Shown here: one piece after another, positions 13,140 through 57,326 of the stretch | Layout: every line of letters begins with the position of its first letter | Position numbering within the stretch: the first letter of the stretch is position 1 | NCBI GenBank assembly: GCA_009602725.1 | Contig: WELB01000031.1 | Span: 372,566 to 431,892 of the forward strand | Direction: 5' to 3' | Source: Spirogloea muscicola | Lineage: Eukaryota | DNA: 59,327 bases | Translations under genes and position numbers: made by a program | The notes under the pieces: generated by a model | Seen by the model: only the letters and a program-made list of their open reading frames with translations | Databases searched by the model: none | Told to the model about the DNA's origin: nothing

Positions 13140-16717
<3,578 letters not shown>

Positions 16718-17417
16718 TAGGCTTTTCAATGCCACTGTCCTCAGACCTAGCGTATGTTGTAGGGCTACCTGGGTGCTGCTCTCGAGTCCGCAAGCCTATC
16801 ATGAGTTCCAACAGGCTCTACCAGGGTGTCTGTCAGCGTGCTCTTCCTGTCACAAGCACTTGGAGAAGCTTTTCCACATGCAAGTGATTCCGTCATCTTT
16901 CGAGTAGGCTTGCATTGTGGTTGTAGTCCCTTCTGAGCTGACAGGGGACAGAGCTCACCGGGCCTGTGCCTAAGCCGCTTCGCCAAGAGGAGACAATGGC
17001 TCAGAAAGTCCAGCTCAACAACATGGACAAGGTCAAGGGGTAAGCCCCAACGCAAATGCGCAAACCATTGCAAGCAATATGAGTGGCTCCAACCGATGAC
17101 CACTGAATAAGTCCTAGTCAATAAGCGCAAGTGGGAAGGTGTAGTTTAGGGGAGTTGCCTTGCCAAGATCGGAGAAAGCAGCTGAGGCAAGTACAGCCAG
17201 CACGTAATGCGCAAGCCTGGTCATATGCAGCCTAATGGATGAATGCAACGTGATCTACCCGAGAGCCCACAGCAAGTATACTAGCCTGCTCGCTGATAGC
17301 AGCCAGAGCCTTTTGGCTGGCCTTCCATAGCTATGCGCCCCTTCCCCCAAAAGCTCTGTGGGCGTCGTTGGGACAATCACATATCCTACAGGCTTGTCGA
17401 CGCATTTGAGCTCCTTA

Positions 17418-18622
17418 CTGGGCTGGGCGCTCCTGTACCTGCTCCTGTACCTGTTCCTGTGTTCTGTAAACAGCGTTCTCAGAGTCTGCCTTCCTCCAGT
17501 CGTACTCCTCCATTGGACGTTTGCCCTTGTCCACAGGCCCAGCAGGCCGCCCTCGCTGAGGCGGCGGCCCAGCGGATCGCCCTCGTCGCGGCGGCTCAGA
17601 TGCAGATGCGCTCATGGCGGCAGACAGATTCAGATCTCAGACAGTCAGTCAGAAAGCACAGGCTCCGCCCTCACCCAAGCTGGGTGGCAGCCATGGCTAG
17701 GGCGCACGGGAGCACCGCGTGGCCTCAGATGTTTGGAGTCTTTTGTTTTCATATTGTAAGGATCTTATTCCAAGTTGATATTTCTTCAATATCTGCTACT
17801 TGGTTAGTAGTCAAGGTAAAAGCTCTTGTAATTCTTGCTAATTCAGTCTCATCAGTTGGGAAATGTCCAGCGCGCGTGATTTTGTGCAACAATTGCTTTA
17901 CGCACAGGTTTGTACTGAATATTTATTGGATTAGCTAACCAATAATCTTTCGCACCCATGCGTCTTATGTGTTGTGCAACAACACCAGAGTGTGGTTGTT
18001 AGGTGCAATGTATCTGAGATACAACAAATTTCCACACTCCGGTGTTGTTGCACAATACGTAAGATGCATGGGTGCGAAACATTATTGGTTAGCTAATCCA
18101 TTATAAATTAAGTATAAACCTGTGCGCGAAGCAATTGTCGCACAAAATCAAGCGCGCTGGTGATTTCCAACTGATGAGACCGAACTGGCACGAATAATGA
18201 GAGCTTCTACCTTGACTGCTAACCAAGTAGCAGATGTTGATGAATAACACTTAGAATAAGATCCTTAAGTATATAACGATAATATTATATTAAATATCTC
18301 CAAACACCTGATGCCACGCGGTGCTCCCGTGCGCCCTAGCCATGGCTGCTACCCACCTTGGGTGAGGGCGGAGCCTGTGCTGTCTGACTGACCGTCTGAA
18401 ATGTGAATGTGTCTGCCGCCATGAGAGCATCTGCATCTGAGCCGCCGCGATGAGGGCGATCTGCTGGGCCGCCTCCTCAACGAGGGCGGTCTGTTGGGCC
18501 TGTGGACGAGGGCAAACGCCCTATGGAGGAGTCCGACTGGATGGAGGAAGGCAGACTCTGAGAACGCTGACTACAACACACAGGAACAGGTACAGGAGCA
18601 GGTACAGGCGCGCACAGCCCAG
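17418..18622. repeat. About 1.2-kb foldback (long imperfect inverted repeat)
   Basis: 17418-17995 is the reverse complement of about 18032-18622, with a loop of about 36 bp. The outer GC-rich part recurs at about 22890-23467. Confidence 0.9.
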
Positions 18623-19350
18623 GAAACCTTTCATCGAGAAGGCGTGGCATATCTTGCCCCTTCCCCAAGGACATGTTGGCTTGACCGGGTAGAATACTCT
18701 AATGCCTCGTACATGTGAGGGTCACGTGCACAAGTGTGCCGATTTTCAAGGCCCGCATCACCAGCATATAGATGGCAAGCAATGATTCCTTCCAGATTGT
18801 ACTGTGGACGCCAGGAAGCAAATTCTAGTGGAATTGCACTTTGAAAGTCTATAGCTTGATCGTCACCATATAAGCCGATTGCGGCAGGACCATTATATGC
18901 TACGTAGTCAAAGCAGAGGCGACAGCGAACAACATGGGACAACTGCAGGCTTTGGAGCTGATTGAACAGCTCATCTGGCCCCTTGCAGCAAGTTACTAAT
19001 GCCATGTCTGCTGATTGATCTCAAGCCTCTGTGCAGGAATAGTGACACATTATTTACAGACCTGGTAAGTTGTAAGTCCGCACAACTCTGAAAACTTACT
19101 CATGGATGTCATAGGTGCACGAAAAAACTAAACGAAACTAGGAGGAGAGCGCTAACTGAAGCTATGCGATTCTAACTACAGCAACTTCAACAGCGCACTT
19201 GGGCCTGCTCCCTAGACTCGGGCCCCCAAGCCCAATCTAGCTGGAGATTGTGGGCACTGCATCAGCTGTCAAGCTGCTAGATGTTGATGTTTGCACTAAG
19301 TCTGTCAATATGGACTCCGCCAATACAGAGGGCAGCTTTGAGCTCTAGAT

Positions 19351-24504: not shown

Positions 24505-24960
24505 TTTAGAACAAAGGAAGATGCAGCACTACTCCGACTACCCTCGATGCGACCAGCTCCTGCCAGCGGCAATCGACATCTATGGCTGTCTGGGTCCTCG
24601 ATTTCACACCCTCCTCCAAAACATTGCCAATCTAGGCTACACACGACGTGCAGATGTGTTTCCGGCTGAAATGGGCTTGCCAGCTGCATATTTGTCGTTC
24701 TTGCGACGTCGAGTTTCGGCCTGTTTGCAGCGAGCTCAGGCTAATGCCTTGCATCAGAAAGCTGGGCGAGCTCTACTTGGTGACAGAAGGGCTTCGTACC
24801 TGACATCTAGTATTCATGCATCGGTTAGCGACCTTTATGTTTTGACCCGTGGATTTTGAGCGGGTCAACCTGCTGTAGGTTATGTAGATATTTAGATGTG
24901 CTTGCTTGCCTTTGTACTTGGCCATTGGCCTATGTTTGTTTCAAATACACGAAATTTTCC
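24505..24960 (+). mobile_element. CRE-type RLE 3' fragment (family C) inserted in the 3'UTR of a family-B copy
   Basis: PAAIDIYGCLG..RRRVSACLQRAQA..SDLYVLTRGF*, flanked by CCTTGCCC at 24497-24504 and 24959-24966. Confidence 0.8.
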
Positions 24961-25086
24961 TTGCCCCCATTGGGAGTGCCACTTCTTTCTCTTGCCACCT
25001 GCACCACACAAAGCCCCTGATTTACTAGGCCGAGAAAGCTCACGATAGCATGTCGAAGGCGTGGTGCTAAGCCTCGATCAGCCGTG

Positions 25087-25436
25087 AGGAAAATTTCGTG
25101 TATTTGAAACAAACATAGGCCAATGGCCAAGTACAAAGGCAAGCAAGCACATCTAAATATCTACATAACCTACAGCAGGTTGACCCGCTCAAAATCCACG
25201 GGTCAAAACATAAAGGTCGCTAACCGATGCATGAATACTAGATGTCAGGTACGAAGCCCTTCTGTCACCAACTAGAGCTCGCCCAGCTTTCTGATGCAAG
25301 GCATTAGCCTGAGCTCGCTGCAAACAGGCCGAAACTCGAGGTCGCAAGAACGACAAATATGCAGCTGGCAAGCCCATCTCAGCCGGAAACACATCTGCAC
25401 GTCGTGTGTAGCCTAGATTGGCAATGTTTTGGAGGA
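25087..25436 (-). mobile_element. Near-identical inverted copy of 24612-24961
   Basis: 350-bp arms with about 3 mismatches counted by eye and a 125-bp spacer. Confidence 0.85.
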
Positions 25437-25825
25437 AAAACATGAGGAACCGGCTGGGCAGTGGTGGGGAAATGGAAATGTGCTTGTCTTTCTTAGTGCT
25501 TCCCCTGGCCCCGTTCTTGTACTTTTTTCATTCTTTTTTGGGCTGGCTGTTCCAGCCCCTATCCTCAATGGGCGAGCCCTTTCTTCTGAAATGGTAGGAA
25601 GTGGTAGAAGCGAGTCTCTGGCTTTGGAGGCCGGGGAACCCAAATGGGCCAAATGGCCCCGCCCCAACAAACAATGTCATTCTTTATCTGACCAAGCATG
25701 AAGGGTGTGGGGAGCTTAGCAGTTCGCTCGGTCCTGTTTCTCCATCTGGCTGTTGCCAACCTTTGCCGCCGCCAAAAACAAAATTTCGTGTATTTGAAAC
25801 AAACGAAGGCCAAAGGCCAAGTACA

Positions 25826-26889
25826 ATGCGCTCGTGGACAAAGCGGCCTACGACCAGGTGGCGGAGCTCCTTCCGCCGCAAGACAGTCGCGGGCGCGCCA
25901 GGCTGCTCTCAGCCTCCTCCCCCGGGGCGGCGGCGTGGGTATCTGCGCTCCCCATATACGCGGCCCTCACAATGCCCGAGGCAGTCTACAGGACGGCGGT
26001 GCAGCGGCTTCTCGGCCTTCTCCCCCCCTGCCTCGTCGGTGTCACGCAAAGTGAGTGCGGTGCCCGCCACGCTGACCCTGCGACGCTGGCGGCCCACATG
26101 CTTCGTTGTGCCCACGGCGGCGAGCGGACCGGATCCCACGACCTGCTCAGGGACGGCATGCAAGGCGTCTTCCTCGAGGCGGGTTACGAAGTGGCCGTGG
26201 AGCACTCGTCAATAATGCCTATCCTGCGCGACGACGACGGCCGGATCCACACCCGGCGCGCTGACCTCGTCGCCATCCCGCCCGGGGGCGGTCCGCGAAT
26301 CATCGCGGATGTGGTGACCACCGACTGTGTCGACTCCGCTAACCCCTCCAAGTCGGCGACGACCGCTGGGCATGCGGTCGCCGTGGCGGCCCGCGGCAAA
26401 GATCGGAAATATGCTGATCACCCGCCTGCCGACGAATTCGCAGCCCTGGCCATCGATGTCCACGGGGCCTATGGCCGTGGCTGGCTGGACCTCCTCCAGC
26501 GGCTTGCCCGGCAGGCCATCGAGCGGCGGCCGGGTCTGCCAGGGGGGCTGCCCGGCTTCAACGCGGCCGGCTCCCTGGCCCAGGTCTTCCGGATGCGGCT
26601 CTCCGTGTCCCTCCAACGCTCCCTCGCCTATGCCGTCCACTCGCGTGCGGGCCGCGCTATCGCGGCTGCTTCTGGGTCGCGTCTGGATGCATCATTTCCT
26701 GCGTCGAGCTACTCCGACCTGATGTTGCTCACCCGGGGGTATTGAGCTTCCTGTGATTTCGTCGTGTCTTCTTCTCTAGCTGCCTAGCTGTGTGTTTTTT
26801 GTTTTTGTGTTTTTTGGCTTTTGACATTGTCCATTCTTTCTGGGCTGGCTTTGCTGGCCCCCTTTCTCTATAGGCTCGCTCTTTCGTTT
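25826..26889 (+). mobile_element. 5'-truncated CRE-clade non-LTR retrotransposon (family A): zinc knuckle plus restriction-like endonuclease ORF 25834-26745 and 3'UTR
   Basis: GAAAWVSALP, C..G..D....H..RC..GGER..SHD, VEH..RRADL..ADV, KDRKY, FAALAIDVHG and RLSVSLQR form the RLE-type C-terminus of CRE/Cnl1/MoTeR-like elements. A U-rich 3'UTR with the hairpin follows. Confidence 0.85.
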
Positions 26890-27547
26890 AAGGCAAGCAC
26901 ATCTGAAGACCTACATAATCTACAGCAAAGTGACCCGCTCAGTAACCACGGGTCAAAAAAAAAACCTTTGCCGCCGCCGCTGCCGCTGCCGCCGCCGCTG
27001 CTGCTGCTGCTGCCCAGTAAGCGTAGCGCGCGCGTCCAGGGCCACGCCGAGAAGGCGTGGGCATACGCACAGAACGCAACCCTGCAGAGAGCCTAACACC
27101 GAGGAGCCCCGCATACGGTCGCGTTAGACTGTCCGCACTTGGTCCGCACTCGCGGCGAACCCCGCGACCTTGTGTGATACTGCTTCAAGCCTAAGCTTGA
27201 ACCTTAGGAGAGCCTTGACTTATATACGCAAGCGACTCTCATTGCGCTCCTTTGCATTGCTGCACTGCGAGCTTGTCTCTTTGCATCTTGCCATCGTTGT
27301 CACATTACCAGGAAGTTGAAGTCCTTTGGACACTTCCCTGTCCGGATCTGTTACCTGGGTTAGTGCCCTTGAACTTGTTCGCCGTTTCTACAACCGGTCC
27401 GTGATACTGTTCCTACAGAAACCCTCTCGGAGGGTAACCTTCCGCTACTGTTCTCAAGGAGACCCTCGTTGAGGGTACTGTTTGGCTCAGTTTGTTCCTC
27501 TTGCTCGCATACTTTGCATGTGTCTTGTCCACCGACATCCCATATTA

Positions 27548-27876
27548 CAGGATTGTGTATGGCCCTAGGATGTCACAAATAGACTGGAAGTCGTAACGAG
27601 CTTCATGATGCCTTCCCTGGGTTCTACGTTATCGATAATGTAACCAAAGGGAAGGATCTGCCTAGCGCGGACGCCATGCATGAATTTGACTAACGATTTG
27701 AATAAACCGCTAGATGGGTGTCGGAAACCTCTGCCAATACCTAAAGCCCTGACACGGGAATCCAGCAATTAGGAGGTCGACTTTAGGCAGCCTCCTGAGA
27801 GATTCTGGTTTGGCGGCGGTTCGGATGTCCTGCGGCAGCAGGCTGTCCCATTCATTGAAGGTATCATGGTTGACGA
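27548..27876 (-). pseudogene. Inverted duplicate of DNMT segment 28089-28419 (motifs IV-VI), with intact GFPCQ
   Basis: The reverse complement reads NEWDSLLPQDI..LPKVDLLIAGFPCQG..FGYIIDNVEP. Confidence 0.85.
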
Positions 27877-27877
27877 C

Positions 27878-28866
27878 ATGGGTATCTTTTACAATGGTGT
27901 CATCAAACGGAATCTACCTCCTGCTGGAATTGTGCTTGTCGAGGCTTTTGGTGGTACTGCTAACGGCTTTCGAGCCGCTATGCAAAGCCACATCAAAGTG
28001 GCACGCTACATCTACATCGACAATGATCCTCAGGCCCGAGAAGCTGCTGCACACCATATCGACATCCTTCGTCGTCAATACCCCAATCTCGTCAACCACG
28101 ATACCTTCAATGAATGAGACAGCCTGCTGCCGAAGGACATCCAAATCGCCGCCAAACCCGAATCTCTCAGGAGGCTGCCTAAAGTCGACGTCCTAATTGC
28201 TGGATTCCTGTGTCAGGGCTTTAATGCTTTAGGTGTTGGCAGAGGTTTCCGGCACCCATCTAGCGGTTTGTTCATCGTCAGTTCATGCATGGCGACCGCG
28301 CTAGGCAAATCCTTCCCTTTGGTTACGTCATCGAAAACGTAGAACCCAGGGAAAAGCACCATGAAGCTCGTTACGACTTCCAGTCTATTTGTGACATCCT
28401 AGGGCCATACTCAATCCTGGATGCAGCAGTCGTGGGTTCGCTGGCCGACCGCAAGAGAGTACACTGGACCAACCTTGCTCCGGTCCAGATGATCCAGCGC
28501 TGCATCAACAAGCAGCAGCGCCCACCCGAACTTCATGCGTACATGGCTCTGGATTCTTGCAAGGAAGTAATTACAGTGGACCATCGCCACAATCGGGAAC
28601 ATGTTTTCAATCGAGAAGGATGTCCCAGAGTTACCTTCCCAACGCTGGTGGCTTCCATTGCTTCGGAGAATTTCCGCCTGCACAACAACATCCCTGCCCA
28701 AGGTATGTTAAAGCATCTTGACACTGGTCGTTATGCTGAGCCAACTCCGGAGGAACGCGAGAAGTGCATGGGTTATAATCCGGGCGACATCACTTTACCC
28801 CACTTCTCCCTTGAAACTGACATTCGCCTCACCGGGCAAGCCTTCGACTCTAATTCCATGACTTAG
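27878..28866 (+). pseudogene. C5 cytosine DNA methyltransferase domain (DNMT3/DRM-like features) within the gypsy pol region; disrupted by a stop and a frameshift
   Basis: Motifs in canonical order: I IVLVEAFGGTANG, II YIYIDNDP, IV VDVLIAGF[L/P]CQGF (about 28185-28222), VI YVIENV, VIII LDAAVVGSLADRKRVHWTNL, IX TPEEREKCMGY, X RLTGQAFD. Confidence 0.85.
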
Positions 28867-30765
28867 ATGTTGAGTGTCACGAATGATATCCAAGTCATCT
28901 ATAAGGTTAAGCAGGCAGAGGCTGCATGTTACCCTCAAGATTTGTCAGACTTAGACATCAATATTCTTGGTCTATTTGCACCAGTAGTGCCTGAGCAGGA
29001 TATCTGACAATTACCAACCTCTAGCCACCAAGTTCACCATTCTTATTGAGTATGAATGGCAGCTTGGGACTGGACTAAGTGTGCTAAATAAGCGGCAAAT
29101 GACAGCCCTTTTGAATGATAAGCTCAATGCTTTTGCTTTTCATCGTCTGACCTGGGTACCTATGTAGGAGCTCATTTTAGATTGTTCTGACAGACGATAA
29201 GCCAATTTTCAGGAGACAGTATCCCTTGTCCCCTATTGAGGATCAATTTGTTGAGCAGCGATGTCAAGAATTGTTGGCAATTGGACTAATCGAATCTTCC
29301 ACCAGTTCTTATGCAGCTCCTACAAATTCTACCAGCCAAGAAGGATGAGTTTGGCAACGATACTGACAAGAGGATGTGTGGGGACTATCGTCAGTCGAAC
29401 GCTTCCACGCCTATCGACAGGTATCCTGTGCCTACGCCCGAGGAAATCTTTAACCAGGTTGGCTCTAGCAAGATGTTCTCAGTGTTAGATCTTCGACAGG
29501 GCTCTAATCAAATTGATATTCAACCTTTGGACAGGCATAACACGGCGTTCTGGGGAGTGCATGGTGGTATTAACGATCTTTATCAATGGGTTAAGATGCC
29601 TTTTGGGCTAAAGAATGCTCCAATAATGTTTCAGCATGTCATGGATGCTGTACTGCAGGGCATTCCATTTGCACGTTGTTACATAGACGATGTGTTGATA
29701 TTTAGCCAAGACTTTACAGAGCACTTCACACATGTTGCAATGGTACTTACAGCGATTCAACAGGCTGGATTGCGCCGTCACCCTGGCAAATGTCGGTTTG
29801 CTTTGACTGAGGCAGCATATCTGGGACACCAGATCTCAGGCAAGGGTTTGTCGCCTCAGGATGCCAAGGTCCAAGCAGTCCTAGCTGTTCCATCACCCAC
29901 TGAACTGAAGTCTTTACGTTCTTTTCTTGGTCTTGCTGGCTATTATCGCCGTTTTATTCAGGACTTCAGTTCCATTGCTCGTCCCCTCCATGATCTTTTG
30001 AAGAAGAGTCAATTGTGAAGTGGACTACGCCTCAGCAGGATGCATTTGAGCGACTCAAACATGCTTTGACCAAAGCTCCTGTTTTACGTCATCCTGATTA
30101 TACCAAGAAGTTCTTCCTTCATACAGACTGGAGCAAAGTCGGCATGGGCGCTGTCCTTACGCAACGAGATGATGACGAACATCACTATGTTATTGCTTAT
30201 GCCAGTCGCAGCAATAATGCTGCAGAGACAAATTACTCCGCATACGAGAGGGAGTGTTTAGCAGCAGTTGGGCCGTTACCCATTTTCAGCCTTACCTGCA
30301 TGGCCGTTATTTTGAACTCATAACTCATCATCAACCCTTGCAATGGTTGTTGACTTCACAGGATCTGAAAGGAAAGTTTGCACGATGGGCATTCAAATTG
30401 CAGGAATACGCATTCAAGATAACACATCGACCAGGGGTTCAGAATATGGACGCTGATGCTCTTAGCCGCAGTCCAATCCCTGACTCAGTTTCTGAGCAAG
30501 TTGCTTGTATGACTGTATCGCATGTGTTCAGATTTTCGTATTGACTAGCATATGATCTCAAACAGTCAACATTCCATTATCATTTGGCATGTTCTTTGGA
30601 TGTTCCTGATGACAACTTCTTCTCAAAGGATGTGTGGTTGGATGCACCAGTTTTTAAATATCTGCAGACTGGAATTTACCCATCTGACTTCACTCCTATG
30701 CAGAAGGAAAGGATCGAACACCGTGCTCGTCGCTACGTATGGCAGAATGACCAGCTGTTTAAGCC
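27878..30765 (+). mobile_element. Degenerate Ty3/gypsy LTR-retrotransposon internal region: DNMT - RT - RNase H - start of the integrase linker
   Basis: RT motifs KRMCGDYR, FSVLDLRQG, MPFGLKNAP and YIDDVLIFS. RNase H motifs LHTDWSKVGMGAVL, YASR..NYSAYERECLA and RWAFKLQEY..HRPGVQNMDADALSR. Multiple stops and frameshifts; truncated at about 30765. Confidence 0.92.
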
Positions 30766-30769
30766 GCAT

Positions 30770-31680
30770 GAGGAGTATGGTGACCAACACACTCGCACTG
30801 GCGCACCCCAATCAGGCAATTAGGTGGGAGGCCGAGGAAGAGTTGCAGCGACGTCCGAAAGGCCTCGGAGCTGATGCTGAAGGCATTGGCGACGGCGTGT
30901 GAGGTGACCCAATCCGTGGCACCAGGTGTGGCTAGAGAAGTAAGTCTTGCCAGGCTCCTTGGATTGTCCTGAATCTCTGGCAGCCTCCTCATAAGGAACA
31001 GCCTCCTCATAAGAAGAAAAGAAGAAAGAGCGCGCCCATAGAGAAAGGGGGCATGCAAAGCCAGCCCAGAAAGAATGGACAATGTCAAAAGCCAAAAAAC
31101 ACAAAAACAAAAAACACACAGCTAGGCAGCTAGAGAAGAAGACACGACGAAATCACAGGAAGCTCAATACCCCCGGGTGAGCAACATCAGGTCGGAGTAG
31201 CTCGACGCAGGAAATGATGCATCCAGACGCGACCCAGAAGCAGCCGCGATAGCCCTGGCAGACCCGGCCGCCGCTCGATGGCCTGCCGGGCAAGCTGCTG
31301 GAGGAGGTCCAGCCAGCCACGGCCATAGGCCCCGTGGACATCGATGGCCTAAGGGGCCTGTGAGAAGGAGGTCTTTCAAACGGGGGGAGGGCTGTGGAAA
31401 GGCCAGCTGACAAGACCAAGGCAGCTAATTTCGTAGCTTGTCCAAAATAAGGGCCGGATGGCGCAAAAAGCAGGATACAAGTCTCTAGGACGTCAGCAAG
31501 TGGGCGCTCAATAACCTCTAGCCAACAAGTGCACGTCAGAATAACTAAGAGGGCGGAAAAGCGTCGCCCTGACGGAACCCGGAGGCAGCAGCAGCCAAGG
31601 CGCGGCCGGCACACAAGTGGACGGCCAAGGCAAGCGACAAGGGGGCAAAGGCATGGGAGGCTATAATAAGGTGATGACGA
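30770..31680 (-). mobile_element. Stack of CRE-type fragments: internal piece 30770-30985, family-A 3' end about 31010-31350, degenerate family-B 3' end about 31390-31680
   Basis: ARLTSLATPGATDWV..FRTSLQLFLGLPPNCLIGVRQCEC; AIAAASGSRLDASFPASSYSDLMLLTRGY*; AGRALAAAASGFRQGDAFP. Confidence 0.8.
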
Positions 31681-32569: not shown

Positions 32570-33513
32570 NNNNNNNNNNNNNNNNNNNNNNNNNNNNNNN
32601 NNNNNNNNNNNNNNNNNNNNNNNNNNNNNNNNNNNNNNNNNNNNNNNNNNNNNNNNNNNNNNNNNNNNNNNNNNNNNNNNNNNNNNNNNNNNNNNNNNNN
32701 NNNNNNNNNNNNNNNNNNNNNNNNNNNNNNNNNNNNNNNNNNNNNNNNNNNNNNNNNNNNNNNNNNNNNNNNNNNNNNNNNNNNNNNNNNNNNNNNNNNN
32801 NNNNNNNNNNNNNNNNNNNNNNNNNNNNNNNNNNNNNNNNNNNNNNNNNNNNNNNNNNNNNNNNNNNNNNNNNNNNNNNNNNNNNNNNNNNNNNNNNNNN
32901 NNNNNNNNNNNNNNNNNNNNNNNNNNNNNNNNNNNNNNNNNNNNNNNNNNNNNNNNNNNNNNNNNNNNNNNNNNNNNNNNNNNNNNNNNNNNNNNNNNNN
33001 NNNNNNNNNNNNNNNNNNNNNNNNNNNNNNNNNNNNNNNNNNNNNNNNNNNNNNNNNNNNNNNNNNNNNNNNNNNNNNNNNNNNNNNNNNNNNNNNNNNN
33101 NNNNNNNNNNNNNNNNNNNNNNNNNNNNNNNNNNNNNNNNNNNNNNNNNNNNNNNNNNNNNNNNNNNNNNNNNNNNNNNNNNNNNNNNNNNNNNNNNNNN
33201 NNNNNNNNNNNNNNNNNNNNNNNNNNNNNNNNNNNNNNNNNNNNNNNNNNNNNNNNNNNNNNNNNNNNNNNNNNNNNNNNNNNNNNNNNNNNNNNNNNNN
33301 NNNNNNNNNNNNNNNNNNNNNNNNNNNNNNNNNNNNNNNNNNNNNNNNNNNNNNNNNNNNNNNNNNNNNNNNNNNNNNNNNNNNNNNNNNNNNNNNNNNN
33401 NNNNNNNNNNNNNNNNNNNNNNNNNNNNNNNNNNNNNNNNNNNNNNNNNNNNNNNNNNNNNNNNNNNNNNNNNNNNNNNNNNNNNNNNNNNNNNNNNNNN
33501 NNNNNNNNNNNNN
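32570..33513. other. Assembly gap, probably containing the ETO1 BTB region
   Basis: Run of N. Confidence 1.
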
Positions 33514-36500
33514 CTGCCCTCGCCCGGCAACGTGGCGGCCCCGCACCCGCCGGCGCTGGCGGCCGCTGTCCTGCGCGCCCTCCTGCGCAGCCTGCCGGAG
33601 AGCCTGCAAGATCCGCGCGCCGCCATGCTCTTCTGTTCCCGGCGCGGCGCCGCCAGACTCGAGGCCGCCGGCCACCTCTCCTTCCCGCTCTGCCTCCTCC
33701 TTGCCAAGGTGCGCCGCCCATGCCAAGCAATCACGTTGCCGCTGCCCCTGTCGCCGCTGCCATGGGAACGTCCATTACCATCTGCGGCCCGTGCTCTGTG
33801 CTCTGCCGGCAGCAATCCAGCAGGCCTTACCTGCAGTGGCCTCAGCAAGCTCTCATGGCTTTGGATGGAATTGTATTATGCTGTGATGTTCCACTAGTCA
33901 CATTGCCCATATCTCAGATGATGTACTCAAACCTGTAGTGCAAAGATGTTCTTAGCAGATTGAAACACATTATGTAAGCAGCCGACTCTTGCTGACCGCC
34001 TATGATGCTCCACCTGGCTGGCCGGTCGGTGCAGGCGTCGAGCGACGATCTGGCGACGCCGGTTGCCGAGCGCAGCGCCCGCACCACGGCGCTCCTACGC
34101 CGGCTCTCGGAGCTGGCGGCGTCGCCGCGCCAGCGCGCCGCAGCGTCGCACGCCCTCGGCTGCGCCCTGCACGGCGCTGCAGAGTACGCCGCCGCGCGGC
34201 GGTGCTTCCTGGCGGCCGCCGTTGAGGGCCACGCCTACTCGCGCGCCGGCGTGGCCCGCTGCGCCGCAGCTCACGGCGATGCCGAGGCTGCCCGTGCAGA
34301 GATCGATAACCTCATCGCCTCCACCCTCAGGTACCCCTTCTTGCGGCTTGCTATGGGTGCCGCCACGACCGCCACCATTGCCACCGCCACCGCCATTAGC
34401 GACGTTATCGCTAACACCACTGACTTCATTGCCACCGCCACCATTGCCGGGCGTTCCATATCGTCGCCTGGCATCCTGAGCTGTCTCGCCAATGGCCGTC
34501 GCTGCTTCGCAGGCCTGCAGGCTGGATGCACCAAGAGCGCGCGCTGCTGCTCGCTGCCAGCGCCGCAGCCGGCGGCGGCGCTGCCGTGGCGGAGCGGATG
34601 GCGGACTTGGACGCGGCCTCGGAGCTCGACCCCACGCTCAAGTACCCGTACAAGATGTGCGCGGCGCTGCTCATGGATGCGCACGACGTCCCCGCCGCCA
34701 TGGCTGTGAGCGCACTACACCCCTACTGCCGTCTCGCGGCACGGTGCCGCTGCCGTTGACATCGGTGGACGTTGCGAGCCTGACCCCTCTCGCTGTCTCT
34801 CGCTGTCGCGGCCCTCAGGAGATGGACCGTGTGCTGGGGTTCATGGTCGCCCCAGACCTGCTGGAGCTGCGCGCCTACTTTGCGCTGGCGGCGCGCGACT
34901 ACGGGAGCGCAGCACGCGACGTGCGGGCGCTGCTGACGCTCGATCCGCTGCACGCCATGTACGACGGCCACGTGGGCGCCGCGCAGCTCCTGCGCCTGCT
35001 CGACCACCGCGTCGAGCGCTGGTCGCTCGCCGACTGCTGGCTCCAGGTGCACACCCCGGCTTGCTGCCACTAGCTCTTGCGGCTGCACAATCATTGTTAT
35101 CCATTAGTCTTCTCATGGTCTTCCATAAGATTGGTGTTGGCTGTTGTCCAAGTTGCTGTCTCTTTATTGTCGCAGGCAATCCATAGATGGTCAGCCCTGA
35201 CGTCCGCTCCTGCGCCTGTGCTTTGGGCCGCTGCCGCTCGCTCAGCTGTACGAGCGCTGGTCGAGCGTGGACGACATCGGATCGCTGGCGGTCGTGCACC
35301 AGATGCTGGAGCAGGACCCCTGCAAGGGCATCGCCTACTTCCGCCAGTCTCTCTTGCTGCTCCGGTATACAACTAACCACCAACTTACCACACCCTTCAT
35401 CCTTTACCGGCCTATTGTCAGCTGCAATTGCTGCAGGCGCCTTGCTGCCAGCTTGCAATGTGGGTTAACTTAATACAAAACAATGATGATAGGAGATCAA
35501 ACACGACCATTCAGGTGGACGACATCCTTTGTGTGCTATGGGTGTTATTTCACATATCTTCGTAACATGTGTGCATGCAAGCGAGCTAACCGCGGTGTTT
35601 GTTTTGCGGTTCTTGTAGGCTCAACTGTCCAGTGGGCGCAATGCGGAGCCTGCGGTTGGCGCGGCAGCACGCCGCGTCGGAGCACGAGCGGCTCGTGTAC
35701 GAGGGCTGGATCCTGTACGACAGCGGGCGGCGCGCCGAGGCGCTGCGCAAGGCGCAGGCGTCCATCGCGCTGCACCGCTCGTTCGAGGCCTACTTCCTCA
35801 AGGCGTACGCGCTCGCCGACGCGTCGCTCGACCCCGCCGCCGCCGCGTCGGTCGTCGAGCTCCTGCAGTGGGCGCTCAAGTGCCCCTCCGACGCCCTCCG
35901 CAAGGGGCAGGTGCGCCGCGCCAGCCTCCCACGCCCGCCCCCTCCTCCCTCCCTCCCTCCCCCTCTCTCTCCTCCATCAATCTCCAGCTGTCGGCTTACA
36001 ATTTGCTGCTTTCTTGGTATTGTTGGTTGCTCAAGCATAGCCCCTAATGGTGTAGACCAATGTGCGCGGCCAACCGATTAGGGACTTGGGTGATTGTCTA
36101 TTTTCCTGTTTTGCGGAAACCAGAGAGTGGTTAACGACGTGCTAACCTCGTTGTGGCAACGCCAGCTGCACCAGGAGTAATTGCAATGCGGCCTACTAAA
36201 TGCGGCCTGCTGCCGGCGCTTTGCACAACTGCAGGCTCTGAATAACCTCGGGAGCGTATATGTGGACATCGGCAAGTACCATCAGGCGGCTGACTGCTAC
36301 ATCAACGCTCTCAAGATTCGCCACACACGTGCTCACCAGGGCCTCGCACGCGTCTATGCCCTGCAGGTCCGGGGCGCTCCCTTGAGCAAGTTAGAAGAAA
36401 TTTACGCCACACGCACAGCAAGTTAGCAGTTTCGCACTGCTACAAGTGAGATTGTGCCAGTGGTATTACACCTGCTGATTACCCGAACTGGCAGCCAATC

Positions 36501-37313
36501 ACCGGTTGTTGACTCCATCATTGGCTCGTGTGCAGGGGAATAAGCAGGCGGCGCGTGCAGAGATGACGCGGCTGATTGAGCGCTCCAAGAGCAATGCAGG
36601 CGCGTACGAGAAGCGGTCTGAGTACTGCGAGAGCCGTGAGGCAATCCTTGCAGACCTTGCGCATGTGCGCCGCATCGACCCCATCCGCACCTACCCTTAC
36701 CGCTATCGCGCAGCAGGTTGGACGGGCTCAGCCTCAGCAGTGACCTTGTCAGACCAACTGCATTTGTCCATTGTCATAGATAAGCTGCTGCGCTGCATGA
36801 GAGCTGTGCATGAGCTTGTCACCTTGACATGTTCAGAGCCAGGAGGAGCTCTCGCAGCCGCTCATGTGCTGAGAGCCCTCTCTGGCAGCTTCTGTAGGAG
36901 TTCTTAAGAAGTACTTGCTCAAAAGTATATGATAAGGTAGCAATACAGATAGAAGTCCTTAAGTTCTTGCTCAGACTCTTGTACGAGGTAGCATTAACAG
37001 CCACAGCATTTTCTAAGATACGGCTCTAAGTGCAATAATATCCTGACACATCTCTGTTGAATGCACAGTGCTGATGGACAGCCGACAGGAGGCGGAGGCG
37101 CTGGCGGAGCTGTCGCGCACTATAACGTTCAAGGCGGATCTGCAGCTGCTGCATCTGCGGGCTGCATTCCATGAGTGCATGGGCGACAAGGAGCTGGCTA
37201 TTCGCGACTGCCACGCTGCGCTGGCCATTGACCCCAAGCACGCCGACACGCTTGAGCTACTCAACACTCGCCTTCTGGGACGCCAGACGCCTACCGCTGC
37301 TGCATCAGGGTGA
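33514..37313 (+). CDS. ETO1: ETO1/EOL-like (ethylene overproducer 1) BTB-TPR CUL3 adaptor; 5' part in or upstream of the gap
   Basis: GHAYSRAGVAR, ELDPTLKYPY, WSLADCWLQ|LYERWSSVDDIGSLAVVHQMLEQDP, FRQSLLLL|RLNCPVGAMRSLRLAR, ERLVYEGWILYD, LRKGQ|ALNNLGSVYVD, HTRAHQGLARV, YPYRYRAA|VLMD and LLHLRAAFHE. Confidence 0.93.
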
Positions 37314-38854: not shown

Positions 38855-41800
38855 CTAGAAGTCCCAGCGGTCCACGGGCATGTGGCAGGCGGGGCAGAAC
38901 ACGTTCTTTGGGTTTCGCTGCTGCATGCAGCAAGACAAGGAAGCACACTGCCTGCAGGGCTTGAGACCCGTCGGATATGAGGCCCCCAAACGATCACAAG
39001 CAGGCAACTGCAAAGACAGAGCTTGGTAGGTAGTGTCAGCAGTTTGTGATCTTCAGATAGGTAGGGCTGCTGTCCTACCTCAAGGATGTCCTTGCAGACC
39101 ATGCAGAGTGTACGGTGACCACAAGGGAGGGCCTGCCACAAAGCCCTTCTTCCAGAGCACGCTGTGCACACAAGCTCAGAGTTGCCAATCACCTGGAGAC
39201 ATTTCTCACAAGGAGAGGATTACTCAGCTCGTTCACCGAACAAAGCCGTGGAAGTAAACTTGTCCTTGTCAGTATACAGCATGCTGCAGCGCATGCTGGG
39301 CTCCCTGGGACAAGAATGTACTAGGTGATCTTTCTGTGCAATACCAGCAAGATGGTTTCTAGCTGATGTTGGGCATGCAATTTACAAGCTGGTCATGGGT
39401 GGTGGACTCTAAAAACAAAACCTGCAATGGGGTGCCCCTTTGCGAGGGACTCATTGAGGAGAGCGTGGGTGGGGCTTGCGCCATGAAGGAGTTGACATCA
39501 TAAGCATGGTATAGTGGAGGCCCGTGTAGAAATTGTGGTGGTGGCTGATTCTCCTGCAGTATGCAAGGAAGTCAGCCGGTAAGCTTTGCACGTCAGATGC
39601 CAACTTCTGACTTGTGACTACAACTCAAGCAGAACCAACGCTTGCCTGGCCAAATACTCATGAAGGATGAAGCTTAATCAGCTGCAATGGCGAACCCACG
39701 TGAAGGATGTAATGCACAGGGGTGTCTGCTGCAGACTTTCGGCTTAAGAAGACTACCTGGAGCCAGGCTTGTTCTTGCAAGAAGGGAACCTGTCCAGAAG
39801 CCTTCTGCAGTCTCTGGTACACTTGGTGGCTGACTGCCTGGAGTCCAGGAGTATTTTGCGGACCGTCATTCCAGAGACTATACTGAAATGGATGTGAGGC
39901 CTCAGATCGGGCTGCGCAATCCCAGTCAGTTGGGTCAACTCAGAGCAGCAATCACCTAAGTAATCTGCAAGAAAGATCGTCCTACGTACACATGGTGGCA
40001 CTTTGTATCTAATCTGCCCTGGCAATAGTTCGTCTTCTGCTTCATGTTGATGCAAGGTCGATTTGGCTACATATGTATGTGTATGGGCTGGGGTTTATGG
40101 GTGTCCTTGTAGTACCCGACTGCGGCCTGAGGCCAGATCCGACGGTCCTTCCCATTTGAGGTGCCACAGGCAGGCCATGAGGTTGTCCTGGAAAGGGGGG
40201 CCCACTCCGGCTGGCCTCCCGATTTGCGGAGCTGCTAGCGCCGGCATTCGACGACGCTTCTTGTGCAGCTCGAGCTTTCCCGCCTCCTGGTTGGTGCAGG
40301 ATAGATATCAACTCAGATAGGAAGTCAGGCTCATCTCCCTTATCCTTGTCTCCCGGCTTCCCGTCAGCAGGGTGGCCGACGTCCTCCATGTGCTCCTCCA
40401 GTGCTGCCTCGCTTCTTAGCTCGTCCGAAGATCCAGGTGTACCTCCCTTAAGAGGAGTCTCACATCCTTGCAACCCCTGCGCCGCCGCTGCGGCGTATGA
40501 GCGCCCAGCTTCGGCGTGCTGGTTATTGAAGATGGCCGATGACAACCCTTGCAGGCTGGACATGCCTGAGGCTGTAGCACAGGCAGAGGAGAACTATCAG
40601 TGGGCTCTTCGCCAAGACCCTCGAAAGACGCGAAGTCCTTGATCTCACTTTCCATTACAATCAGATGTACAAATCTCTGCCACATTCAGAAGCACCCTGT
40701 GTCTAGCTGCGTCATACTGACAAGTTCAATGGACATGCGCAAGGTCTGCAACTGGATCAGATGACGTTGTAAAATTGCATAATGTTGATATACTATACAT
40801 GTACTTACCAGGCGGCAGCAGAACCATATGGGTAGCAGGGCCTCGGCCAACTGGCACGATCTTCATCCTACAGACATCGGGCAGTGCTCGCACAAAGTCA
40901 CTGAGCTTCTGGAAGCCAAGGCTAGTGTGATCCAATTCAAGGCCGCACGTAGCTCTGAAGTCGCCTTTCAATGACGACAACGGATACCACTCTCCTTCGG
41001 CCAATCTGCTGGACGCCTGAGCAATAAACCTCGGCATCCACTGCCGCAGCTTCTTCAGCCATGCCGGCTGTACGGCTGGCAGGCCAGCTGGCACAGAAGC
41101 ATCTGGTGTGTAAGGCACTCCTCCTGCGTATCGACTGTGCAGTGAGGGCAGCTGGTAGTTGATAGCCCTGTGCTCGTCATGCATACTCCTGTTCTCGTCT
41201 GTGGTCTGCAGATCAGCAGACCACGGCTTCTTCTGATCGACCCTGTTCACCTCCTCAGCTGCTGCTGCCGCTTCTGCGAGCAGCACAGGCCTGGGAACAG
41301 CGCTCTTCACTTCGACCTGGTCATGAGAAGAAGAGCTTGCTTGTAATTGCTGTGGCTGTGCTGTTCCATGGTCGGGAAGTGAATAAAGAGGGCTCACATG
41401 ACGAATCAAATGAAGTAGAGACACATTTATATCATGCCTTCGGGCAATGAACACTTCACTCAAAGCTTTACAACGCTTCATCGGGCTCCAAGAAGGCGTC
41501 CAAGAGCTGAGTGCGCGCGTCTGCCATGGCAAGCCTACCTTTTTCCCAAAGAGGTTAACAAAGTGAGCTTGAACTGCTGCTTGGACAGAGCTCTCGTGCT
41601 TGAAGGTGACGAAGCCAAAACCACGGGACATAGTTTGGTTCCCTGTCTGGCTCTCTATGACCACAGCATCCACGACTGGACCAAAGTGCGCTTGGAAGAA
41701 CTCGCGTAGATCCTCTGCAGGCCAGGCACAATCGCGCAAAGAGTGCATGAGAAGCCACACCAAGTCTGGAGCTGCCTCTATCGAGGATATCTCGTATTCT

Positions 41801-43328: not shown

Positions 43329-46300
43329 TCATGAGATGCCTGCTGGGGCCTCAATGAGCGTTGATGTATTGGTCCCAGTGTTGCCATTAAGGACAGTCAC
43401 ATTGCCGTCAGCGTCCACATCAATGATGGCACTATCGCCCTCCTTGATCTCGCCGGATAGCATCCTCTCGGCCATGCTGCTCAGCCCAAGTGACCAGCAA
43501 ACCCACATCAGCATCTTGTTGATTCATAGAGCACACTCATGCTGATACTGGGTGAACAGCCTGCCAACCTATGTACTTCATTACTCAGCAGTACAGAGTG
43601 TTATATGCAACAACCTCCAATGTAATCCCTGCTCATCTCACCTGTCCTCAAGAAGTCTCATAATCGCTCGTCGCAGTGGGCGAGCTCCATACGAGGGACT
43701 ATAACCCTCATCCACTACCCGATCCCTGAACCTTTCAGTGACCTTCAGAACGAAGGGCATGGGCAGTAGTCAGCTTGGGATCTTTCCATAACAAAGTGCC
43801 TTAGACTTTTCAATAATGACATTGACAACTGCAGGAGAAGATATCCTACTCTCAATTACTCTCACTGTATCAAGTGAGGTAGTACCTGAAGGTCAATCTC
43901 CTTCTTGTGCAGGCGCTCAAACACCTCCTTCAACATGATGTCTGCAATCTCTTTGACCTCCATCTTCGTCAGCTGCCTGAAGACAATGATCTCATCCAGT
44001 CTGTTGAGGAACTCTGGCCTGAAGTACTGCTTCAGCTCCTCATTAACAAGGCTCTTGATGCGGTTGTAGCTGCTGTCCTTCTCGCCATAGTCAAGCTGCA
44101 GTCCAGTCCAATTTACAATCCCCGTGAGACATGCATAAAAGGTCTGCAGCAAATCTGGTCAGATAGAGTACAACATGCCTCCTGCACCTTGCCTGACAAT
44201 CTCTAGGAGGTCAATAGCAAGTTTCGTCAAGAGCACATAGAAACTGAATGCATCTCCTCGTCATCCCTGCCTATTGCACCTGGAATCCAATGCCACCACC
44301 GCCCTTCTCAATCACAGAGGAGCCAACGTTTGACGTCATAATAAGCAAGGTGTTCTTGAAGTCCACAGTCCTGCCCTTGCTGTCAGTCAGACGCCCATCC
44401 TCAAGAATCTGTTGGCAGACAGCAACACGTCAACCATGAGGAAGAAGAAACAACAAATTGCGGTCCACCAAGAAGGAGCATAGTAGCACCAACTTAACAG
44501 ATTCGAGGTGTTGGAGTACCTGAAGCATCATATTGAAGACATCTGGATGAGCCTTCTCAATCTCATCGAAGAGAACCACAGTGTACGGACGCCTACGAAC
44601 TGCCTCAGTTAGCTGGCCGCCCTCACTGTATCCAACATATCCAGGCGGGCTCCCAATAAGCTTGGAGACCGTGTGCCTCTCCATGAACTCCGACATATCG
44701 AGACGCACCATAGCCTGCAAAAAAAGCGTGGCCTTCACTATCTTCCATACTTAAGCTCAAGCCGAGAAGCACCAGGAGAGATTCTGTACGCGAGCACCTG
44801 CCAACTCAGGACAAACTAAGCAGAAAGTGGCATGATGTACCTCCTCGGAGCCAAAATAGTAGGATGCGAGAGCCTTGGCAAGCTCTGACTTTCCAACACC
44901 AGTTGGGCCAGAAAAGATGAAGGACGCAATGGGCCGGTTGGGGTTCTTCAGCCCAACGCGCGCACGACGGATGGCACGAGAGATGGCCTTCACGGCCTCG
45001 TCTTGCCCAATAACGCGCTGGTGAAGTGTGCCCTCCATCTTAAGGAGCCTGTCGGACTCATCAGTCGAGACCTGCGCCATAAAATCCAGCAGGTTGCACA
45101 TGAATCTCAAGTGCACATTAAAGGTGACAGACAGCTTAGCGTGATAACTTACTGCATACACTTACAAAGAGTGAGGCAACATATATGATAAGGAGCTGGA
45201 TATGGAAAGCTTTGTGCTGGTACTAAGAGCTGACCTTCTCCACAGGAATACCCGTCCAGGCGGACACAATCTGCTGGATGTCTGACTCAGTGACAAGTGG
45301 GCCAGTCTCTCCACTCTCCGTCTCCGCCTTCATCTTCTCCTTGCCCTTCTCTGTGATGGCTGAGATCTGAGCTTTCAGCTCCATCTCACGGTCACGTAGC
45401 TCTCCAGCCTGCACCAATAATCAGGTTGTCGGAGATATACCTAATCAGCACCAGGTTGCTGAACACAAGCTAGCCAGACTCCATTCTGTCCTTCAATCCC
45501 AAATTGATCAATTCGCCATGCCTTGCAAGCCCAGAGGCTATTTAGATGGACAGTCAACTGGATACAACACACCAGAGAGCAGGAACGAAATGCAGATTCC
45601 ACACGATCTCACAATCTCATCCGCACACGCACAGACGATCGAACTTTCGAAACGCCTGCTATACAAGGTACTTAGCACGCCTACTAAGCTCAGATGAGGA
45701 CCTTCTCAAAGTCCTGGCCCCTGACTGCTTCGTTCTTCTCCTTGGTGATGGTACGGAGCTCCTTATCCAGCTCCCGGGCCTCTTCAGGCAGCTGCAGCAA
45801 TTTCAACAAGCGAATACAGATAAGATCTCACAGGGTATTATCAAGCTTGCATATTACAAGCCAATGATGTAAGCCATGCAAGCAGAGCTCATTGTGGAGG
45901 TTCAGTGAGGAACACAAGCTGTGCACACCTGTGCGTGGCGAAGGCGCACACGAGAACCAGCCTCATCAATCAGGTCAATGGCCTTATCGGGCAAGAAGCG
46001 GTCACTGACACAACAACAACATTACGAGGCTTGTAAGCACGTCTGAACCAGATTTGCTGTCATCATCCTCTGTGGTTGATTTGCATCTGACTTACTATTC
46101 TTCTTTGAAATGAGCGAATAGGCAATCAAGTTCCTGCTAGATTAGACTGCTGAGTACAAGTGCAGTACAAGAGGAGAGAAAGACTGAATTGCCGCACTAA
46201 AAGATGACAGACAATGTCCCCTCCCAGCATACCTGATATACTGGTATGACAGTTGAGCAGCAGCAATGAGGGCTTCATCAGTGTAGCGAAGCTTGTGGTG

Positions 46301-55870: not shown

Positions 55871-55879
55871 GAAATAGCC

Positions 55880-57155: not shown

Positions 57156-57326
57156 GAGACAAGAGGTGGTAAGTGGTCCAGTGACACCGGTTGTCGCGGA
57201 TGACCGTCCGCAATGATGACGTGATAATGCAGACCGGTGCTCACCTTGCTTGACCGCTGCAGGCAGCAGCCCCGGCGATGACGGCAGGGGCTCGTGGAGA
57301 CATGAATGGATAGTCACGCTTATACA

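What the first reader, a model, noticed from the sequence alone, without database searches (positions are those of the whole stretch)
27878..30765. Ty3/gypsy retrotransposon carrying its own C5 cytosine DNA methyltransferase
Seen: C5-MTase motifs I, II, IV, VI, VIII, IX and X lie in canonical order, without introns, on the same strand and about 200 bp upstream of a gypsy RT-RNase H, which is where a pol-embedded domain would sit. Established: DNMT-carrying retrotransposons have been reported in dinoflagellates and charophyte algae and are rare elsewhere. Inference: the family may self-methylate its cDNA or interfere with host silencing. The RxRxxWTNL and ExEKCMG motifs look DNMT3/DRM-like, while GFPCQ is bacterial-like, so the origin is open and may be an independent or lineage-extending acquisition. 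This copy is dead (TGA at 28115 plus frameshifts).
Basis: partly seen in the sequence, partly recalled or inferred. Interest (0 to 1): 0.9.

Follow-up and report, generated by a model that had tools for sequence, protein, structure and literature searches.

The report
Dead Gypsy retrotransposon carrying DNMT3-like methyltransferase
This is a broken, truncated copy of an already described kind of jumping gene that carries its own DNMT3-like DNA-methylating enzyme, predicted to methylate the element's freshly made DNA copies; its relatives occur in several green algae and in liverworts, beyond the one alga where it was first described.

Summary
Real, but a known kind. Window 27886-28866 is an intronless C5-methyltransferase (Pfam PF00145 22.4 bits, cut-off 22; 204 bits on a relatives' profile, shuffles at most 2.8), followed about 190 bp later by a gypsy RT-RNase H cut off before integrase. 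Its best RT match and other relatives carry the same domain between protease and RT. RT and DNMT trees place it in one clade with a Klebsormidium nitens DNMT-Pol (Gypsy-DNMT3, de Mendoza 2018), Closterium, Marchantia, Calypogeia and Pleodorina; its nearest kin are Spirogloea gene models. Profile and fold searches rank DNMT3A/B first, above phage enzymes, DRM and M.HhaI. So this extends the host range; it is not an independent capture. One correction: the forward copy reads GFLCQ; GFPCQ lies in an adjacent inverted duplicate. The copy is dead. The scan noted this kind earlier in two moss genomes. New lead: 5 of 6 related DNA loci have one in-frame TAG-CARYYA (readthrough-type) stop between DNMT and RT, and the window has TGA-CAATTA at the matching place (823 of 100,000 shuffles), but it lies outside that sub-clade. 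Enzyme activity is untested.

The parts
27886..28866 (+). DNMT3-like C5 cytosine methyltransferase domain of the element's polyprotein; broken (TGA 28115-28117, L-C-Q in motif IV, frameshift near 28273-28281, TAG 28864-28866)
   Evidence: Pfam; tblastn of relatives; motif places; profile score; other genomic copies differ at motif IV, at the frameshift and at the last stop
28867..29053 (+). Linker between DNMT and RT, with a frameshift near 29045
   Evidence: a loose end of another copy is two letters longer here, which keeps linker and RT start in one frame (table 7, aligned by eye)
29005..29013 (+). TGA CAA TTA in the DNMT frame: candidate relic of a programmed readthrough stop (stop-CARYYA); may instead be a decay stop
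   Evidence: 823 of 100,000 linker shuffles give an in-frame stop-CARYYA; same motif in 5 of 6 related loci
29054..30017 (+). Ty3/gypsy reverse transcriptase (YIDD 29680-29691), N-terminal part in several frames, TGA at 30016-30018
   Evidence: Pfam RVT_1; tblastn; trees
30018..30478 (+). RNase H, split by a frameshift near 30267
   Evidence: Pfam RT_RNaseH and RT_RNaseH_2
30479..30763 (+). Spacer after RNase H; homology to relatives stops just before the integrase zinc finger (element truncated)
   Evidence: tblastn; no integrase or PHD hit in the window
27548..27885 (-). Inverted duplicate of the middle of the DNMT (motif IV GFPCQ to motif VI), 89% like 28078-28419, itself gapped
   Evidence: its left junction is present in a contig of run X1 (loose end at 28419)
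27016..27547 (.). Non-coding repeated DNA; LTR candidate, not shown
   Evidence: summed contig depth about 1000-2500 against about 100 for one contig in X1; no protein hit; no second copy in the window
25798..26964 (+). 3' part of a very high-copy unrelated repeat ending in an A run; looks like a CRE-type non-LTR element (label recalled from motifs, no Pfam hit)
30764..31349 (-). Very high-copy repeat DNA that cuts the element; 31024-31349 is 98-99% like the left-flank repeat, inverted

Best explanation
This is a dead, truncated copy of the Gypsy-DNMT3 LTR retrotransposon clade, in a host that is likely a zygnematophyte alga, and in live elements the DNMT3-like domain likely methylates the element's own cDNA at CG. 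Shown: the domain sits between protease and RT in relatives' polyproteins (Gag-PR-DNMT-RT-RH-IN-PHD), keeps its catalytic residues across the clade, and belongs to one RT clade and one DNMT clade with a K. nitens DNMT-bearing Pol. Inferred: it is packaged in the particle with RT, is released or carried as part of Pol, and methylates cDNA before or at integration, so that new copies arrive with host-like CG methylation; the PHD finger after integrase would read chromatin at the target. Identity about 0.95; the cDNA-methylation step about 0.55.
For: Best single-RT match P0004 (61%) carries PF00145 before RT and aligns along the window in order; 8 of the 120 listed RT hits hold the domain in the same protein. 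P0025 is PR-DNMT-RT-RH-IN-PHD and P0032 (Closterium) zf-CCHC-DNMT-RT-RH-IN in one ORF; K. nitens KFL_009030040 is DNMT-RT-RH-IN. 72 of the 150 listed hits of the window's own DNMT half carry another retroelement domain; 77 are DNMT-only proteins or fragments, 1 had no call. RT tree: 31 rows including the window form one side of a branch, 94/99, apart from 15 other gypsy RTs. DNMT tree: 44 element rows vs 7 phage rows 100/100; window with Spirogloea models 100/100. A second, 82% alike copy in the same runs spans DNMT into the RT start, 27914-29169. Catalytic residues in 153 relatives: Cys 147 of 150, Glu 152 of 153, Arg 151 of 151 and 150 of 151. Model of relative P0310 (pLDDT 96) matches DNMT3B/3A best. 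Published: related dinoflagellate retrotransposon Dnmt3 domains methylate CG in yeast; K. nitens copies show Ka/Ks < 0.2 (PMC5890265).
Against: No activity is shown for any member of this clade; KnitGypsy-Dnmt3 was negative in yeast, called inconclusive. CpG observed/expected is 0.84 in the DNMT part and 0.61 in RT-RH against 0.79 for the window, and 0.28-0.79 in five relatives: no clear self-methylation mark, and host methylation would give the same. 64 of 151 relatives have E-C-Q instead of P-C-Q. No eukaryotic DNMT3 sequence was in my trees, so host-DNMT3 origin rests on profile and fold ranks and on the published tree. Deep branches inside the clade are unresolved; the window and the K. 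nitens rows are not sisters. That KFL_009030040 is one of the published KnitGypsy-Dnmt3 copies is inferred from species and architecture. The 'DNMT clade' label came from the earlier tree and includes 8 RT proteins without DNMT in the same ORF.
Confidence: 0.75

Rival explanations
1. Same element, but the methyltransferase is made at Gag level: ORF1 is Gag-PR-DNMT, and RT-RH-IN-PHD is made only by readthrough of a leaky stop; TGA-CAATTA at 29005-29013 is the relic. The abundant enzyme could then act on host chromatin as well as on cDNA.
For: L009, L010, L011, L012 and L023 each have exactly one in-frame stop between DNMT and RT, TAG followed by CAR-YYA; L013 has TAG-TAG-CCA (5 of 6). L009/L010 are 91% alike, the other pairs 66-76%. 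Many proteins end 58-144 residues after the DNMT. CARYYA is the tobamovirus readthrough signal and also works after UGA (PMC3542737, passage). The window's motif is in frame, 49 nt before the conserved Trp of the RT start (17th codon in L011, 24th in L009/L010/L012), 823 of 100,000 shuffles.
Against: The readthrough loci form their own RT sub-clade (99/99) that does not hold the window. The window's best RT match P0004, Closterium and K. nitens proteins are single fused ORFs. The stop is TGA, not TAG, and a CGA or TGG codon decays to TGA easily in a copy with many such stops. Other genomic copies could not be read at this place (one search shows 40 of 294 rows).
Confidence: 0.27
2. The domain is kept for a role other than cDNA methylation: methylating RNA, damping the element's own or rival elements' expression, or binding DNA without catalysis.
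For: Negative yeast assay for the K. nitens domain and the authors' own list of alternatives; E-C-Q in 64 of 151 relatives; the domain has moved within Pol in one sub-clade, so its place next to RT is not essential.
Against: Cys, Glu and both Arg are near-invariant; the fold is that of DNA-acting DNMT3; DIRS-borne Dnmt3 domains methylate CG DNA.
Confidence: 0.3
3. Independent capture of a phage or bacterial methyltransferase by this family.
For: Motif IV region resembles M.HhaI; on the four-sequence profile the best phage enzyme scores 78.6 against 80 for DNMT3A; DNMT3-like phage enzymes share motif VIII R-x-R-x-x-W.
Against: On the 48-sequence profile DNMT3A scores 87.4 and the best of 8 phage enzymes 70.8; all element domains form one group apart from phage, 100/100; RTs form one clade too. 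Only 8 of 319 phage hits were fetched.
Confidence: 0.05
4. Chance neighbours: a host DNMT pseudogene or insertion next to an unrelated gypsy fragment in a scrambled repeat region.
For: The region is full of inversions and nested repeats.
Against: Single relatives align colinearly over DNMT, linker, RT and RNase H; a second copy spans the junction; no introns.
Confidence: 0.01

Closest known systems
KnitGypsy-Dnmt3 of Klebsormidium nitens (de Mendoza et al. 2018, PMC5890265; parts 1-5 of 7 read, supplement passages; main supplementary PDF not readable); called 'streptophytes (Gypsy-DNMT3)' in bioRxiv 10.64898/2026.05.21.726589 (passages)
   Same: Intronless, unrearranged Dnmt3-related domain inside a gypsy Pol; same RT clade and same DNMT clade as K. 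nitens KFL_009030040.
   Different: Distinct sub-lineage, 100/100 with Spirogloea gene models, on a long branch; this copy is dead and lacks gag, PR, IN and LTRs; possible stop-CARYYA after the DNMT; paper text read names no other host.
SymbioDIRS-Dnmt3 and SymbioLINE-Dnmt of Symbiodinium (PMC5890265)
   Same: Cytosine methyltransferase carried by a retrotransposon; DIRS form is Dnmt3 in Pol and active on CG in yeast.
   Different: Other retrotransposon classes (tyrosine-recombinase DIRS, LINE), separate captures by the authors' trees; not tested against these sequences here.
Host DNMT3A/3B and plant DNMT3/DRM
   Same: Best profile and fold matches: DNMT3A 87 bits, DRM 58; DNMT3B Z 28.3, rmsd 2.6, 269 aligned; DNMT3A Z 27.0, rmsd 2.4, 259 aligned.
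   Different: No PWWP/ADD or UBA, no circular permutation, motif IV G-W/F-P/E-C-Q, an insert between motifs II and IV, 23-27% identity.
EpiLTRs of Cymbomonas and Euglena (bioRxiv 10.64898/2026.05.21.726589, passages)
   Same: LTR elements with a cytosine methyltransferase and a chromatin reader.
   Different: Their DNMT is sister to DNMT4, with DAM and chromodomain; the authors call it distinct from Gypsy-DNMT3.

Membership tests
Gypsy-DNMT3 (KnitGypsy-Dnmt3) | Ty3/gypsy RT and RNase H | tested here: met
   Pfam; RT trees
Gypsy-DNMT3 (KnitGypsy-Dnmt3) | Intronless, unrearranged DNMT domain related to Dnmt3 | tested here: met
   motif order; profile ranks; fold of relative P0310
Gypsy-DNMT3 (KnitGypsy-Dnmt3) | DNMT in the same reading frame as RT (Pol ORF) | tested here: inconclusive
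   This copy has frameshifts and stops in the linker; other copies lack the stop at 28864 and one keeps the frame near 29045; TGA at 29005 unresolved; fused in P0004, P0013, P0025, P0032, P0167
Gypsy-DNMT3 (KnitGypsy-Dnmt3) | Common descent with the K. nitens element (RT and DNMT) | tested here: met
   RT 94/99 (bootstrap not fully settled); DNMT 100/100 against phage only; identity of KFL_009030040 with the published copies is inferred
Gypsy-DNMT3 (KnitGypsy-Dnmt3) | Conserved catalytic residues | tested here: met
   Cys, ENV Glu, both Arg present in the window and near-invariant in relatives; Pro of P-C is Leu in this copy only among the copies laid
Gypsy-DNMT3 (KnitGypsy-Dnmt3) | Gag, protease, integrase and terminal repeats | tested here: inconclusive
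   absent from this truncated copy; Gag-like and protease-like sequence precede the DNMT in close relative P0187 (read by eye); no whole genome held
Gypsy-DNMT3 (KnitGypsy-Dnmt3) | Purifying selection on the DNMT (Ka/Ks) | not testable with these tools
   sequences of the other genomic copies are not delivered by read laying
C5 DNA methyltransferase, active enzyme | Methyl transfer to cytosine in DNA | not testable with these tools
   needs an assay; this copy is broken
DRM (domains rearranged methyltransferase) | Circularly permuted motifs (VI-X before I-V) | tested here: not met
   canonical order I-X
Stop-CARYYA readthrough elements (sub-clade of L009-L012, L023) | Single in-frame stop-CARYYA between DNMT and RT | tested here: inconclusive
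   motif present at 29005-29013 but among decay stops
Stop-CARYYA readthrough elements (sub-clade of L009-L012, L023) | RT inside that sub-clade | tested here: not met
   window outside the 99/99 group

The most novel reading that the evidence does not exclude
Gypsy-DNMT3 is an old, green-lineage-wide retrotransposon clade with a DNMT3 writer and a PHD reader, in which the methyltransferase is placed at the end of ORF1 and made at Gag abundance while RT-RH-IN-PHD needs readthrough of a stop-CARYYA; the window's TGA-CAATTA is the zygnematophyte relic of that switch. (For the bryophyte-type relatives alone the readthrough reading is about 0.8.)
Probability: 0.27. Interest if true: 0.62.

Novelty: new member of a known kind. 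Interest (0 to 1): 0.4.

Why it matters
The window itself is a fossil of a described element type. Its value is comparative. It adds a zygnematophyte-type lineage to a clade described from K. nitens, and the searches show that clade in Closterium, Coleochaete (RT only), Marchantia, Calypogeia and a volvocine alga; one review passage states that methylase-bearing transposons are absent from land plants such as tracheophytes (PMC6338049). Marchantia has many annotated copies and is a genetic model, so the open question of what a retrotransposon's DNMT does becomes testable there. If the readthrough layout holds, the enzyme would be made in Gag-like amounts, which bears on whether it marks only cDNA or also the host genome.

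Tried and rejected
No whole genome is held, so copies, LTRs and Ka/Ks could not be examined. Word-based search with the C-half found nothing among longer proteins; the full HMMER search did. PDB sequence search with the C-half alone: 0 hits at E 10. Viral contigs: no RT relative, two weak DNMT hits. ESM Atlas gave no result. Sequencing runs: four DNA runs of one sample, possibly the window's source, so not independent; no RNA holder listed. CpG depletion is not diagnostic; 4 of 15 transitions between the inverted arm and the forward copy are in CpG. 27016-27547 as an LTR: not shown. Phygy of moss (NCGN target preference, PMC6317226) was considered as the moss branch of this clade; no sequences were on hand to test it, and the table lists no extra domain. 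Assembly artefact for the inverted arm: its left junction stands in a contig. Literature: ten searches showed no paper on Gypsy-DNMT3 in Zygnematophyceae, liverworts or chlorophytes, nor on a readthrough stop in it; only two papers hold the family's names. Unseen supplements may cover this: the main supplementary PDF of PMC5890265 (too large), the trees and tables of PMC12344493 (not opened; built on a broad proteome set), the bioRxiv supplement (closed), and Gao et al. 2003 on recoding signals (not held). Tree omissions: one search kept rows with at least 230 profile positions plus three partial rows; one search kept 97 RT rows; one search used 51 hand-picked rows without the long-branch phage L002; one search used 46 rows, P0145 left out.
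Full report
Observation. The + strand from 27886 to 28866 encodes C5-methyltransferase motifs I, II, IV, VI, VIII, IX and X in canonical order without introns. The N-half, read with X at the TGA at 28115, passes Pfam PF00145 narrowly (22.4 bits, cut-off 22). The C-half has no Pfam hit but finds 311 clusters at E<=0.001 among 1.84 billion representatives. The whole domain, read with X at its breaks, scores 203.9 bits on a profile of four relatives, while 200 shuffles reach at most 2.8. RT homology begins at 29054, about 190 bp later; RVT_1 and RNase H hits are strong. One detail is wrong in the finding: the forward copy reads GFLCQ. GFPCQ lies at 27763-27749 on the minus strand, in an inverted duplicate (27548-27885) that is 89% like 28078-28419.

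Anatomy. The element survives as DNMT, linker, RT, RNase H and a spacer that ends at 30763, just before the integrase of relatives. Gag, protease, integrase and PHD are not in the window, and no LTR pair was seen. Very high-copy repeats flank it on both sides. Contigs of four DNA runs of one sample hold the window's own letters in pieces with no difference, and also other copies: one contig of 1567 nt aligns from 27914 to 29169 with 225 other letters and 14 gaps, crossing from DNMT into the RT start. Of 45 contigs laid on 27886-29340, 14 are at least 99% alike, 6 are 90-99% and 25 are under 90%, which suggests a small, old family with no recent burst. The other copies differ from this one at motif IV (3 contigs), at the frameshift inside the DNMT (2 contigs) and at the stop at 28864 (4 contigs), so these breaks are private to this copy. 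The runs may be the window's source and are not independent support.

Relatives. The best single-RT match, P0004 (61%), carries PF00145 before RT; the higher-scoring first row is a Solanum protein at 39% identity. 8 of the 120 listed RT hits (of 643) hold the domain in the same protein. Whole layouts are PR-DNMT-RT-RH-IN-PHD (P0025) and zf-CCHC-DNMT-RT-RH-IN (P0032, Closterium). A profile search of long proteins gave 52 hits, among them K. nitens KFL_009030040 (DNMT-RT-RH-IN), Closterium, Marchantia, Calypogeia and Pleodorina. Of the 150 listed hits of the window's own C-half, 72 carry another retroelement domain, 77 are DNMT-only proteins or fragments and 1 had no call. The four closest, and a fifth cluster member, are Spirogloea muscicola gene models, so the host is likely a zygnematophyte; the window's other genes are plant-type.

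Trees. In the RT tree of 46 rows the window and 30 other rows, including both K. nitens proteins, form one side of a branch (94/99, bootstrap not fully settled) apart from 15 animal, seed-plant and unnamed gypsy RTs; a quick tree of 97 rows agrees. In the DNMT tree of 51 rows all 44 element domains stand apart from 7 phage enzymes (100/100), and the window groups with the Spirogloea models (100/100) on a long branch. Deeper order is unresolved. No eukaryotic DNMT3 sequence was available for the trees. On a 48-sequence profile DNMT3A scores 87.4 bits, DRM 58.5, M.HhaI 33 and the best of 8 fetched phage enzymes 70.8; on the four-sequence profile the gap was small, 80 against 78.6. A model of the intact relative P0310 (pLDDT 96.2) matches DNMT3B (Z 28.3, rmsd 2.6, 269 aligned) and DNMT3A (Z 27.0) above M.MpeI (24.7) and M.HhaI (21.9); Foldseek lists DNMT3 chains only among the rows shown.

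How it likely works. Shown: position in the polyprotein, shared descent, and near-invariant catalytic Cys (147 of 150), Glu (152 of 153) and two Arg (151 of 151, 150 of 151) in relatives (the set was chosen by likeness, which favours motifs VI-X). From established LTR-retroelement biology: Pol domains are packaged with the RNA and meet the cDNA in the particle. Inferred: the enzyme methylates cDNA at CG, so new copies arrive with host-like marks; in K. nitens CG methylation covers active gene bodies and silent elements alike (PMC5890265). Against: the K. nitens domain was negative in yeast (called inconclusive), CpG content is not diagnostic, and 64 of 151 relatives have E-C-Q. I put this mechanism at about 0.55. 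The copy in the window cannot do any of it.

A lead beyond the finding. Of 6 fetched loci that hold a whole DNMT and RT, 5 have exactly one in-frame stop between them, each TAG followed by CAR-YYA; the sixth has TAG-TAG-CCA. They are 66-76% alike in DNA except one pair at 91%. UAG-CAR-YYA is the tobamovirus readthrough signal and also works after UGA (PMC3542737, passage); in-frame gag-pol stops are known in other LTR elements (bioRxiv 10.1101/2022.12.06.519325, passages). Here the stop would put the DNMT in the abundant ORF1 product. The window has TGA-CAA-TTA in the DNMT frame at 29005-29013, 49 nt before the conserved Trp of the RT start; 823 of 100,000 linker shuffles give such a site. But the readthrough loci form an RT sub-clade (99/99) that excludes the window, its best RT match is a fused ORF, and decay stops are common in this copy. 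I give it 0.27 for the window. A second layout with the DNMT between RNase H and integrase makes up 62 of 162 rows and one group; its only named member is Pleodorina.

Comparison with what is known. De Mendoza et al. 2018 (PMC5890265; parts 1-5 of 7 read; supplement passages) describe Dnmt3-related, unrearranged, intronless domains in the Pol ORF of a K. nitens gypsy element. Later work refers to it as streptophyte Gypsy-DNMT3 (bioRxiv 10.64898/2026.05.21.726589, passages; PMC12344493, passages and section 5). The window meets the tested defining features (gypsy RT, DNMT3-like domain, shared descent, catalytic residues); same-frame fusion and terminal repeats are inconclusive in this broken copy. 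Ten literature searches showed no account of the clade in Zygnematophyceae, liverworts or chlorophytes, nor of the stop, but unseen supplements may hold it. The scan's earlier notes report the same kind in two moss genomes and an in-frame TGA between gag and a methyltransferase-Pol in another element; these are unchecked leads, found after my own reading was formed.

Verdict. A real feature and a new member of a known kind: a dead zygnematophyte-type copy of Gypsy-DNMT3. The wider host range, the PHD reader, the moved domain and the readthrough stop in relatives keep it at 0.4.

Noticed in passing
L009:2081, L010:5083, L011:4509, L012:4661, L023:3489; L013:1789: One in-frame TAG followed by CAR-YYA between DNMT and RT in 5 of 6 loci; all domains stay in one frame. 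Likely programmed readthrough with Gag-PR-DNMT as ORF1; these RTs form one sub-clade with a Coleochaete transcript.
   Followed up: partly
P0171 (Pleodorina starrii), P0173, P0197, P0232 and others: A second layout, RT-RH-DNMT-IN-PHD: 62 of 162 rows, one group 100/100, catalytic residues kept. The DNMT has moved within Pol; the only named member is a chlorophyte, which may mean transfer between green lineages.
   Followed up: partly
DNMT alignment: Motif IV reads E-C-Q in 64 and P-C-Q in 76 of 151 relatives, in both layouts.
   Followed up: no
P0025, P0009, P0012, L010, L012, L023: A PHD finger, not a chromodomain, ends the integrase in this clade.
   Followed up: partly
P0131 cluster (Marchantia polymorpha): 18 cluster members, annotated as hypothetical genes on autosomes and the V chromosome, are ORF1-type proteins of this element.
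   Followed up: partly
window 17415-18625, 24612-25436, 27548-28419, 57259-57743: Many short inverted duplications in repeat DNA, 85-99% alike; other copies of the gypsy family also show strand-switch joints. Cause unexplained.
   Followed up: no
window 25798-26964, 31024-31349, 53724-55425, 58333-58809: Pieces of a very high-copy repeat family (summed depth over a thousand times one contig) with a C-terminal ORF that looks like a CRE-type non-LTR endonuclease end (recalled; no Pfam hit); two ORF copies 69% alike.
   Followed up: no
window about 33500-37200 (+): Intron-split TPR-type gene that looks like plant ETO1/EOL1 (recalled from sequence, no profile hit), next to an assembly gap at 32570-33514.
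   Followed up: no
window 471-1247, 6874-7650, 8103-12674, 13140-13679, 40729-41799, 44760-49055, 55664-56269: Host-type genes by Pfam: DUF7075, Rubisco LSMT, serine carboxypeptidase, Iso_dh, OST-HTH plus RRM, Clp-type ATPase, and a DDE_Tnp_4 fragment.
   Followed up: no
L023 (CADCWO010000201.1): A near-complete element of this plant clade is filed in a cyanobacterial metagenome bin; likely a binning contaminant.
   Followed up: partly
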